Shown here: piece after piece, positions 25,101-28,100 of the stretch
How the letters are laid out: each line of letters opens with the position of its first letter
How positions within the stretch are numbered: position 1 is the stretch's first letter
Source: Eledone cirrhosa
Lineage: Eukaryota
Length of the DNA: 64,000 nucleotides
NCBI GenBank assembly: GCA_964016885.1
Contig: OZ024747.1
Coordinates: 22,630,001 to 22,694,000 of the forward strand
Direction: 5' to 3'
Notes under the pieces: model-generated
Database searches by the model: none
The model's input: only the letters and a program-made list of their open reading frames with translations
What the model was told of the DNA's origin: nothing
Made by a program: the position numbers and the translations under genes

Positions 25101-28100
25101 AAGTAAAGAAGCTTGCCATGGAGCCTTCAAAAGTATTAAAACACGTGTAGTTGTTGGATTGGAAGTATCAGTAGAGCGCCAGACAACATGCTTTGCAGCA
25201 TAGAGTTATGGCCCTTTACGCCATGCGTTCAAATCCTGTTGAGGTTAACTTTGCCTTTCATTCTTACAGGGTTGATAAAATAAAGCACCAGTAATGCACT
25301 GGGTAATTGCTGGCCTTGTGCCAAAAGTAGAAACAATTAATATATAAAAACAAATAACGAAACGAAATTAAATTTCGTTTCGTTTGTAACTCACTTTTGT
25401 ATGACTGACGCTTAAACAATTAAGTTAAAGATGTACATCCATATATGTATACTGAAATACTAGTATGTATATGAATACACACACGTATACATATGTAGAT
25501 GTACCAAGTTTTTTCACTGGTCACTTTACTGTGAGTGGCCAGCTATTCTGTATGTAAACACACAGACAAACCGGTTTTTAGAGTCATACTGGTTTTTGAG
25601 GAAACACCTTTCCTCTATTCTCCAGAAAGCCAGACAAGGAATATTGAACTAGTTTCGTTGTTGTTACAACTCATCAGCAATATTTACCTATCTTCCGGCC
25701 TCTCTAGAGAATCGTAAAAGCACATATCGTTATATGCTTTTTCTATGAAAATTAGTAGTGGGCAGACTAATTTGCATAGAGTGTGACCAGTGAAAAAACT
25801 TGGTAAAATTGTTTAAGCGTCAGTCATACAAAAGTGAGTTACAAACGAAACGAAATTTAATTTCGTTTCGTTATTTGTTTTTATCGTCTCCAATGAACCG
25901 GTACTTACTCACACTCTATGCAAATTAGTCTGCCCACTACTAATTTTCATAGAAAAAGCATATAACGATATGTGCTTTTACGATTCTCTAGAGAGGCCGG
26001 AAGATAGGTAAATATTGCTGATGAGTTGTAACAACAACGAAACTAGTTCAATATTCCTTGTCTGGCTTTCTGGAGAATAGAGGAAAGGTGTTTCCTCAAA
26101 AACCAGTATGACTCTAAAAACCGGTTTGTCTGTGTGTTTACATACAGAATAGCTGGCCACTCACAGTAAAGTGACCAGTGAAAAAACTTGGTACATCTAC
26201 ATATGTATACGTGTGTGTATTCATATACATACTAGTATTTCAGTATACATATATGGATGTACATCTTTAACTTAATTAATTAATATATAATAATGTTTAA
26301 AATTGTAAAAAAAAAAAAATGCATTACCTTCGACGGAGTATTATCTGAAAGACAGCATGTGACCGAGAAGAATGCTGGTTGGCAGCAGTCTGACCAGAAG
26401 TTCTACAAATACATCAATCAAAATATGAGTTAAGTAACGGAAAGTGTCATTTACATTTATTAAATATATCACATCTAAACTATAATAAAGTAAAGAGCGC
26501 AGGACTGCGTACGGTTTATCATTTTTTATCCCATTACTAAAATAAGTTGGATTACTTTGAATAAATAATGAATGAATATTACATAATTTATCTACTAAAT
26601 TTTGTGGCTGTTGATTAAATATATTTTGTTTATTTAAAGATTCACTTCTTTAAAATTTCTGAAATGTCAACACTTCCGGTTGGCAATCGCTTAAATAAAC
26701 ATACATATATTTCTGTCACTAATTTTCTCCTAATGCAGTTTATATATAATATCCGTCTTTTTTTAATGTATCATTGATTACGCTACTGATTACATAAGAC
26801 AGTGTAACACAGTCTTCGTTCAATTTCTATGTATTATACATTGTCAATTACGATTTTATTTGGTGTATCATATCTACATGCATATATACTTGCGTATAAA
26901 ATCAATATACACACCACACATGCTAGCAGAAAACCACCCTTCGGGTGTATTTTCTGCTCGTATATAATAATAGATGTAAAAGTGGCGGATTGACAGAGTC
27001 ATGATAGTGCTGGATGCTATGTTTTGCAGTATTTGTAGCAGCTCTCGGCAACTTTGCCTTCTGATCTTTTGGGGTCAATAAATAGGGTGGTGGATTAGTG
27101 AATGGGTTAATTTGCAACATTTGTTCCGGCTGTGTGCATTCAGAGTTCAAATCTTGCCTTCTGTCACTAGAAAAATGCTAACATGTTATGACTGGGGAAC
27201 CTATTATTAAAATAGCCACAAGACTCTTTATGAGATGTAACCTCATAGGTAGCCAGCTAAACCTAAATACGTGTGAGCTGCAAGAATAACAGTGTGTGTG
27301 TGCGTGTGTGTAAATAATTTGGATTCTCATCTTGGATGTTTACATAAATTTAAGATATTTTATATGAGGATATTTATACTGTGTGTATCTGGTTTAGAAT
27401 AAGTACACTGTATCCCTGCATGTGACTAAAAAAAATTTGGTGCCAGGAAGGGCATCAGGCTGTAAAACAATGCCTTAAAAATTCCCATATAGCTCAACAT
27501 TAAAATGCAAAGGAATGTGTAATGGACAGAAGAGGAGGAAGTGCCAAGAATTTAAGTATAATCAACTTCTCATTATCTCAAAATTGCTGACCTTGTGCTT
27601 AAATTAGAAACTATTATTATTATTGTTGTTATTATTTCTGACACTAACACAATCCTTGGTCCTGGACTGCCATTTTCCTCTACCAAAAATACATACCACC
27701 TAAGGAAGGAGCCCCGTGAGGTATAAGAATGGCTAATGCAACAGATGCCACTGGCTGTTCTGTCAGCAATGCTTTTACCATCTTGACCACAGGGCGCAGC
27801 TGAGATATACCACCTAGAAAGGAGTGTAGAATCTCATTCCTTCTCCCTTTTACATTATTTTTCTTTACCTGTTTATTATGTGAAATAAAAAAAATAAAGA
27901 TATATAATGTGCTCTGGAATAGAGACGTGTTGATGAACTAATCTAGCTATGGATTAATTCATCAACATAATGGCTGTAGCTAGTTGTGTAGTTAGTGTGT
28001 GTGCTGTTGTACAAGCCTAGAGATTGCCTCTACTTCCACCCCATGCCATATTCAAATATATACAACAGACCCCTAAGTGTCCCCGGGGCAGATTGCTCCA

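What the first reader, a model, noticed from the sequence alone, without database searches (positions are those of the whole stretch)
25335..26290. Interleaved perfect inverted duplication (A-B-A'-B') 50 nt from the kinesin switch-I exon
Seen: A (25344-25421) is the reverse complement of A' (25807-25884, 78 bp), and B (25418-25786) is the reverse complement of B' (25909-26277, 369 bp). I saw no mismatch by eye. The pairs cross (pseudoknot-like order), so they offer competing folds. A and B overlap by an AATT microhomology. B contains most of a 300-bp TA-flanked MITE, while B' carries a copy truncated inside its TIR. A holds its own 14-bp-arm palindrome (25356-25384). The whole block is bracketed by a 13-bp direct repeat AATTAATATATAA (25335, 26278). 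On the kinesin sense strand a consensus GTAAGT donor sits exactly where B' ends (25908-25903). Inference: a very recent template-switching or aberrant-transposition product. It would put a ~370-bp perfect dsRNA into the kinesin pre-mRNA next to a motor exon, a strong ADAR/Dicer substrate (extensive A-to-I editing is established for coleoid cephalopods) that could affect splicing.
Basis: partly seen in the sequence, partly recalled or inferred. Interest (0 to 1): 0.75.

Follow-up and report, generated by a model that had tools for sequence, protein, structure and literature searches.

The report
Octopus retrozyme insertion in kinesin intron
The crossed inverted duplication is real, but it is one ordinary young insertion of a very abundant 467-base octopus repeat that carries a predicted self-cutting RNA motif and is likely copied by Penelope-type jumping-gene enzymes, and many other copies in the same genome have the same two-armed shape.

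Summary
The structure is exact, but it is not a one-off rearrangement. A'+spacer+B' is one 467-bp monomer of a protein-free family with about 10,600 monomers and about 2,400 fixed 3' ends in this genome. Each monomer carries a predicted type I hammerhead. The block is a direct arm ending at a fixed long end, fused 5'-to-5' to an inverted arm ending at a fixed short end, inside a 13-bp target duplication. That shape occurs in 45 of 77 other insertions examined; 27 of those 45 share the crossing order, and 11 have perfect arms of 300 bp or more. This is the published Penelope-like insertion pattern, so the element is a non-LTR retrozyme. The 'MITE' exists once and is a junction by-product. A 369-bp duplex is predicted in the kinesin-13 pre-mRNA, but no splicing effect was seen and editing was untested. 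The partner enzyme was not found. This scan has noted such octopus elements before on other DNA; my literature searches found none described in cephalopods.

The parts
25335..25347 (.). Target-site duplication, left copy (13 bp; last 4 bases shared with the element's long end)
   Evidence: 12-13 bp duplications at 5 other loci with readable targets
25344..25786 (-). Direct arm, in element sense on the minus strand: monomer positions 103-467, then 1-78, ending at the fixed long end
   Evidence: 2,444 matches to the long-end pattern genome-wide
25344..25421 (-). Segment A = monomer positions 1-78; holds the 68-75 nt tail between the two fixed ends and a 14-bp-arm hairpin (25356-25384)
25624..25695 (-). 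Predicted type I hammerhead, sense to the kinesin pre-mRNA; predicted cut between 25647 and 25646; predicted to be fully paired with B'
   Evidence: Rfam RF02275, E 1.5e-7, below the gathering score; fold
25783..25806 (+). Inner junction: 4-nt GTGA microhomology, monomer positions 365-387, one extra base, then a jump over positions 388-467. This piece is the apparent second 'MITE' terminal repeat
   Evidence: junction unique in the genome
25807..26277 (+). Inverted arm: one full 467-bp monomer (A', spacer, B') plus 4 bases, ending at the fixed short end
25918..25925 (+). Octamer-type motif ATGCAAAT (name recalled), kept in 58 of 63 monomers and in a diverged sister family; possible promoter element
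26000..26071 (+). Predicted type I hammerhead of the inverted arm (antisense to kinesin): core 26018-26024 and 26039-26042, one-pair helix III with a palindromic CTAG loop, predicted cut after 26048
26191..26262 (+). TA-rich hairpin just before the short end (mirror copy at 25433-25504); it is skipped at the inner junction
26278..26290 (.). Target-site duplication, right copy
25903..25908 (-). GTAAGT on the kinesin sense strand; antisense of monomer positions 97-102; not conserved in the family
26328..26402 (-). Kinesin-13 (KIF2A-type) switch I exon, 75 nt; its donor is 50 nt from the insertion
24813..26327 (-). Host intron, 1,515 nt (572 nt without the insertion and one duplication copy)
   Evidence: spliced contig
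24769..24812 (-). Next kinesin exon

Best explanation
The block is a single young insertion of an abundant, protein-free 467-bp repeat with a predicted hammerhead ribozyme (a non-LTR retrozyme), likely copied into the intron by a Penelope-like reverse transcriptase/endonuclease working in trans. Shown: family size, tandem monomers, two fixed outer ends 68-75 nt apart, 5'-to-5' fusion of a direct and an inverted arm, TA-rich targets, 12-13 bp duplications, and near-identity of the two arms within an insertion. Inferred: the enzyme cut both strands about 12-13 bp apart at an AT-rich site. Each target 3' end primed cDNA on the same multimeric or circular RNA through 3-4 nt of microhomology, one at the long end (position 78) and one at the short end (position 4). 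The two cDNAs grew towards each other and were joined through GTGA microhomology, with a jump over the TA-rich hairpin. The crossing A-B-A'-B' order follows because the two arms are different rotations of one monomer. The pre-mRNA duplex is most likely a by-product that is edited or ignored and that masks the one sense ribozyme.
For: 10,628 matches to a 22-mer of A, spaced 461-470 bp where they are in arrays, control 0. 7,819 exact hammerhead cores. 2,444 long ends. Of 77 scorable insertions, 45 are two-armed and 5 have a short inverted stub; 45 of the 51 with an inverted piece of 25 nt or more end at the short site; 67 of 77 are followed by a TA tract. Arms within an insertion differ by 1.06% against 6.6% between insertions. 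Hammerhead core intact in 47 of 50; a double change in helix II in 12 of 50; 6 of 15 pairs change on both sides against a sister family (3 sequences). Monomer folding z = -11.35. Published pattern: partial tandem, inverted 5'-truncated copy, tail at one end, TA bias (PMC8557442); 8-10 bp duplications around inverted pLTRs (PMC3846280); both-strand cleavage and extension with two internal RT start sites bounding the tail (PMC11167929). Intact RT + GIY-YIG frames exist in this genome.
Against: No autonomous element sharing the monomer's sequence was found among 50 GIY-YIG loci or in the 3' end of one young family (best E 0.11). The Rfam score (37.7 bits) is below the family cut-off of 52. The tail is 68-75 nt against 30-40 nt in the papers read. 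Frangieh et al. saw initiation without homology to the cut DNA, whereas these ends share 3-4 nt with the target (partly unavoidable in TA tracts). 21 of 77 insertions are single-armed and 6 have an inverted piece ending elsewhere. Expression, cleavage and circles were not tested. The sample is 90 of 2,444 ends, all from one contig.
Confidence: 0.85

Rival explanations
1. Same family and same enzyme, but the inverted arm arises by self-priming fold-back on an antisense template, as proposed for rotifer Penelope elements, not by two independent primings.
For: PMC3846280 reads palindromes at inverted junctions as self-priming (passage). 4 of 45 two-armed insertions have their two 5' points within 10 nt (L144, L173, L176, L180; read).
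Against: 41 of 45 are not symmetric. In the window the two 5' points are positions 103 and 365. Both outer ends are fixed.
Confidence: 0.07
2. One-off DNA-level template switching or aberrant transposition around a MITE.
For: A microhomology-mediated jump at the inner junction; a 23-bp inverted repeat flanked by TA.
Against: The 'MITE' junction occurs once. The only other DNA hit lacks the second repeat and is a monomer array. Every piece maps to one monomer, and the same layout recurs in 45 of 77 insertions.
Confidence: 0.02
3. The insertion has a function or a real effect at this gene: the duplex recruits ADAR, makes small RNAs or changes splicing of the switch I exon.
For: B and B' are fully paired in the predicted fold, 50 nt from the donor. 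Young repeats are the main A-to-I targets, and octopus had the highest editing rate of 22 species (10.1101/2020.01.19.911685, passages).
Against: Roughly 1,400 loci of this family should form such duplexes (extrapolated), so the feature is not special. Predicted donor accessibility hardly changes (0.34 against 0.29). One spliced contig joins the exon to both neighbours exactly, though that animal may lack the insertion. Editing of the intronic duplex itself is likely and would not show function.
Confidence: 0.08
4. Assembly artefact.
For: No contig from public runs was shown to span the locus-specific junctions. Such structures are known to trouble short-read assemblies (PMC8557442).
Against: The block obeys the family's fixed ends, has a matching 13-bp duplication in non-repetitive sequence, and sits in an intron whose flanking exons splice in frame.
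Confidence: 0.03

Closest known systems
Metazoan non-LTR retrozymes (Cervera and de la Pena 2020, PMC7229834, parts 2-3 of 6 read; Li et al. 2026, 10.64898/2026.07.22.740005, parts 1-2 of 5 read)
   Same: Protein-free tandem monomers with one type I hammerhead each, GC under 50% (35%), duplications longer than 4 bp, strong self-pairing, thousands of copies. The one-pair helix III with a palindromic tetraloop matches the axolotl HHR_Amex1 type, which cleaves well only as a dimer.
   Different: 467 bp is above the 150-450 bp range of the 2020 paper but within the 51-972 bp of the 2026 preprint. The parts read do not describe two-armed inverted insertions or a cephalopod family. RNA, circles and cleavage are untested here.
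Insertion architecture of endonuclease-bearing Penelope-like elements (PMC8557442 and PMC3846280, passages; PMC11167929, parts 1-2 of 4)
   Same: Partial tandem plus inverted 5'-truncated copy joined head to head, tail at one end only, short duplication, TA/AT-rich targets, hammerhead in the repeat unit.
   Different: No RT or endonuclease frame in the unit. Tail of 68-75 nt against 30-40 nt. Duplication of 12-13 bp against 8-10 bp in the rotifer cases. No matching autonomous pLTR found.
L1 twin-priming 5' inversions (recalled, no call)
   Same: Inverted 5' segment inside a target duplication, joined by microhomology.
   Different: The second priming site is fixed, the arms overlap in sequence and can each span several monomers, and there is no poly(A).
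Inverted young repeats as ADAR substrates (10.1101/2020.01.19.911685, passages)
   Same: A long intronic duplex from oppositely oriented young repeats.
   Different: Here one insertion event supplies both arms.

Membership tests
Non-LTR retrozyme | Tandem monomers of a few hundred bases, many copies | tested here: met
   467-bp unit; 10,628 core matches; an array of about 30 units on C1
Non-LTR retrozyme | Type I hammerhead in each unit | tested here: met
   Core intact in 47 of 50; paired changes in helices I and II; Rfam E 1.5e-7 but below the gathering score
Non-LTR retrozyme | No protein coding | tested here: met
   Longest stop-to-stop frame in the block is 62 aa; 0 of 6 frames match Pfam
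Non-LTR retrozyme | GC under 50%, highly self-paired, duplication longer than 4 bp | tested here: met
   GC 0.349; z = -11.35; 12-13 bp at 6 loci including this one
Non-LTR retrozyme | Two consecutive intact hammerhead units (the 'active' rule of Li et al.) | tested here: met
   Met by the family (consecutive exact cores). Not met by this copy, which has one ribozyme per strand.
Non-LTR retrozyme | Transcribed, self-cleaving, forms circular RNA | not testable with these tools
   No RNA holder listed; contigs cannot show ends, strand or circles
Penelope-like insertion pattern | Partial tandem plus inverted 5'-truncated copy, tail at one end | tested here: met
   45 of 77 insertions; 45 of 51 inverted pieces end at the short site
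Penelope-like insertion pattern | Tail of 30-40 bp | tested here: not met
   68-75 nt between the two fixed ends
Penelope-like insertion pattern | Bias for TA microsatellite or AT-rich targets | tested here: met
   67 of 77 right flanks and 53 of 77 left flanks are TA tracts; this copy sits in a short AT-rich site
Autonomous Penelope-like element | ORF with RT and GIY-YIG endonuclease | tested here: not met
   None in the block; such frames exist elsewhere in the genome
Non-autonomous derivative of a specific PLE | Sequence shared with the pLTR of an autonomous family | tested here: inconclusive
   None found in 50 GIY-YIG loci out of 10,597 candidates, nor in one family's 3' end
MITE (TA-flanked) | Multi-copy family of complete elements bounded by terminal inverted repeats | tested here: not met
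   The junction forming the second repeat occurs 1 time in the genome

The most novel reading that the evidence does not exclude
This family is a currently active octopus retrozyme whose RNA is self-cleaved and circularised, then copied round and round by a Penelope enzyme from two fixed start sites on both strands of one cut. Most new copies are then born as long perfect inverted repeats: about 1,400 loci that supply double-stranded RNA to the strong editing system of octopus. Their thousands of 5' junctions would map in vivo ribozyme cleavage (17 of 116 junctions fall in the 33 bases after the predicted cut), and this copy would test whether such an insertion alters editing or splicing of a kinesin motor exon.
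Probability: 0.3. Interest if true: 0.6.

Novelty: new member of a known kind. Interest (0 to 1): 0.27.

Why it matters
The locus itself is ordinary: one of about 2,400 insertions. The family has some value. How retrozymes are mobilised and how Penelope-like elements make their tandem/inverted ends are stated as open in the papers read (PMC8557442, PMC11167929). A young family with two sharp start sites, readable duplications and intact candidate enzymes in the same genome is good material for an in vitro test. It is also a likely large source of intronic double-stranded RNA in an animal with very high A-to-I editing. My searches found no paper describing cephalopod retrozymes, and a 2026 Octopus vulgaris repeat annotation has no occurrence of 'ribozyme' in its main text (PMC13282606). 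Repbase entries and supplements were not seen and may already hold related sequences.

Tried and rejected
DNA searches with A and with the first 86 bases of B found nothing, not even the window. They are uninformative because the search skips common words; a pattern search then gave 10,628 hits. MITE family: rejected. Sequencing runs: no RNA holder listed. Laying contigs and reads was swamped by repeat copies; runs X2, X3 and X7 had no cover on the unique right flank, so neither the junctions nor an empty allele could be tested. A-to-G differences in those tables are family variants also present in genomic copies and say nothing on editing. Autonomous partner: not found. The microRNA matches are weak hits to the TA-rich hairpin, far below the cut-offs, and were rejected. 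One search used a structure string that was out of register for helices I and III; it was redone as and only that result is used. The bin 251-275 was set on a wrong guess of the cut position (the predicted cut follows position 242). All 5'-junction bins were chosen after seeing data, so those p-values are only hints. The folding cannot model pseudoknots, so A pairing with A' inside the B loop was not tested. Look-ups of earlier findings by sequence and by place returned nothing.

Full report
Observation. Every coordinate checks out. A and A' are exact reverse complements (78 of 78), B and B' likewise (369 of 369), the 13-bp direct repeat is identical at 25335 and 26278, and GTAAGT lies at 25908-25903 on the minus strand. 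The host gene is a kinesin-13. One exon's best solved-structure matches are Klp10A, KIF2A and KIF2C. A 52-residue stretch is 100% identical to a protein named KIF2A of Octopus bimaculoides and 94% to a cuttlefish protein, so the host is taken to be an octopus. The block lies in a 1,515-nt intron, 50 nt downstream of the donor of the switch I exon.

It is a family member. A 22-mer from A matches 10,628 times (up to 1 mismatch; reversed control 0), mostly in arrays with a period of 461-470 bp, often a plus array facing a minus array. Window 25807-26273 (A', spacer, B') is exactly one monomer of these arrays. Numbering that monomer 1-467, the block is a direct arm on the minus strand (103-467, then 1-78) fused 5'-to-5' to an inverted arm on the plus strand (365-387, a jump, 1-467, plus 4 bases). 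The apparent MITE is the antisense copy of positions 365-387 inside B facing the sense copy at the junction. That junction occurs once in the genome. The only other hit to the 308-bp 'MITE' stops at base 288 and is a monomer array.

The monomer. It is 35% GC. It has no frame over 62 codons and no Pfam match in 6 of 6 frames tested. It folds far better than shuffles (z = -11.35). Rfam finds a hammerhead (RF02275, E 1.5e-7; 37.7 bits, under the cut-off of 52) in both B and B'. It is type I, with a 7+2 bp helix I, a 5-bp helix II and a one-pair helix III closed by a palindromic tetraloop. The core is intact in 47 of 50 insertions with a full region, and 12 of 50 carry a two-sided change in helix II. 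Against two copies of a diverged sister family, 6 of 15 pairs change on both sides and 93% of cells pair, against 32-48% when slid (3 sequences only, two of them close kin). The exact core occurs 7,819 times. This helix III matches the axolotl HHR_Amex1 type, which cleaves poorly as a monomer and well as a dimer (PMC7229834).

Insertion anatomy. A pattern for the long end (position 78 not followed by the next monomer base) matches 2,444 times; one short-end variant matches 591 times. I fetched 90 of the 2,444 (the first 30 and 60 of the next 70 listed, all on contig C1). I dropped 13: 1 without the end in the fetched stretch, 1 internal variant, 1 segmental duplicate, 2 where the match was the inner junction, and 8 running off the stretch. 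Of 77, 45 are two-armed, 5 have a short inverted stub, 6 have an inverted piece ending elsewhere and 21 are single-armed. The short end lies 3-10 bases into the next monomer, so the tail is 68-75 nt. 67 of 77 long ends are followed by a TA tract. Where the target is not pure TA, duplications of 12-13 bp are readable (L007; L061, L074, L154, L164 and the window), including 3-4 bases shared with the element ends. The crossing order is present in 27 of 45, and 11 of 45 have a perfect inverted repeat of 300 bp or more. Opposite arms of one insertion differ by 1.06% (296 segment pairs), units in one arm by 0.90% (563) and different insertions by 6.6% (3,385). 8 of 45 insertions, the window among them, show no difference between arms. 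So the perfection shows youth and a common template, not rarity. Scaling 45 of 77 to 2,444 gives roughly 1,400 two-armed loci (extrapolation).

Mechanism. The pattern is the published one for endonuclease-bearing Penelope-like elements: partial tandems, an inverted 5'-truncated copy, a tail at one end and microsatellite bias (PMC8557442, passages), with 8-10 bp duplications around inverted pLTRs (PMC3846280, passages). A purified PLE protein cuts and extends both strands at AT-rich DNA and starts reverse transcription at two internal sites that bound the tail (PMC11167929, parts 1-2). Retrozymes have been proposed as non-autonomous PLE derivatives (PMC7229834, parts 2-3; 10.64898/2026.07.22.740005, parts 1-2). 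I infer two primings, one from each target end, on one multimeric or circular RNA, with the cDNAs joined through GTGA microhomology and a jump over the 72-nt hairpin. Fold-back self-priming fits poorly: only 4 of 45 junctions are symmetric within 10 nt (read). Whether the template was a circle or a read-through of an array cannot be told from these data.

Partner. The genome is rich in PLEs: 10,597 GIY-YIG candidates, a 938-aa frame with RT and GIY-YIG matches, and a young family with 150 scored copies at 95-100% identity and frames up to 905 aa. Many copies of that family also end in TTTAT before a TA tract, but its 3' region shares no significant sequence with the monomer (best E 0.11). In 50 GIY-YIG loci the only similarities were separate insertions of this or sister families. 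The partner is unidentified.

Effect on the gene. In the predicted pre-mRNA fold B and B' are fully paired, which buries the one sense hammerhead, and A' keeps its local hairpins. Unpaired probability at the true donor is 0.34 with and 0.29 without the insertion. GTAAGT is present in 11 of 63 monomers. A 2,248-nt contig from run X5 (same species label, kind not on record) joins the exon directly to the exons at 24812 and 28162. That shows normal splicing in one sample whose genotype here is unknown. Editing of the duplex is plausible, since young repeats are the main A-to-I targets and octopus edits most (10.1101/2020.01.19.911685, passages), but it was not testable and would be shared by many loci.

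Limits. No read support for the junctions or an empty allele. No RNA data. One contig sampled. Supplements were not read, and those of bioRxiv are closed; Repbase and supplementary PLE lists may hold related octopus sequences. Searches found no cephalopod retrozyme paper. Earlier notes of this scan describe similar octopus families of other unit lengths, two of them in this genome; they are unchecked and are not counted as support.

Verdict. Real structure, ordinary cause: a new member of a known kind. Interest 0.27.

Noticed in passing
L123:7100-9000, L124:2390-2960, L107:2700-3090: Diverged sister hammerhead families (unit about 511 bp in L123) with the same layout: TA-rich hairpin, an end in TTTAT before a TA tract, the octamer-type box, and paired changes in helices I and II.
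   Followed up: partly
monomer positions 232-275, 96-112 and 1-50: 5' junctions cluster: 21 of 116 at 232-275 (17 after the predicted cut), 12 at 96-112 (the window's 103 among them) and 30 at 1-50. Bins were chosen after the fact. This may reflect ribozyme-cleaved templates, a start site or pausing at hairpins.
   Followed up: partly
L123:3144-5140 and L193-L222: A very abundant young PLE family (26,618 candidates, frames up to 905 aa) with an unusual hammerhead-like motif in its 3' region and ends in TA tracts.
   Followed up: partly
runs X4 and X7: Contigs from other coded organisms match the monomer at 98-100%, one across the tandem junction, so the family may be recent in several species.
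   Followed up: no
window 25149-25346: A SINE-like repeat (84-91% to copies at 4132, 8953, 14347 and 39979) ends at the insertion site; the element landed in its AT-rich end.
   Followed up: no
window 16482-17073: Tandem repeat at about 94% identity with offsets near 94 and 190 bp in the self-comparison.
   Followed up: no
L138 and L139 (G000:C1 near 55.97 and 55.99 Mb): Two insertions with identical structure about 17.7 kb apart, likely a segmental duplication or an assembly duplicate.
   Followed up: no
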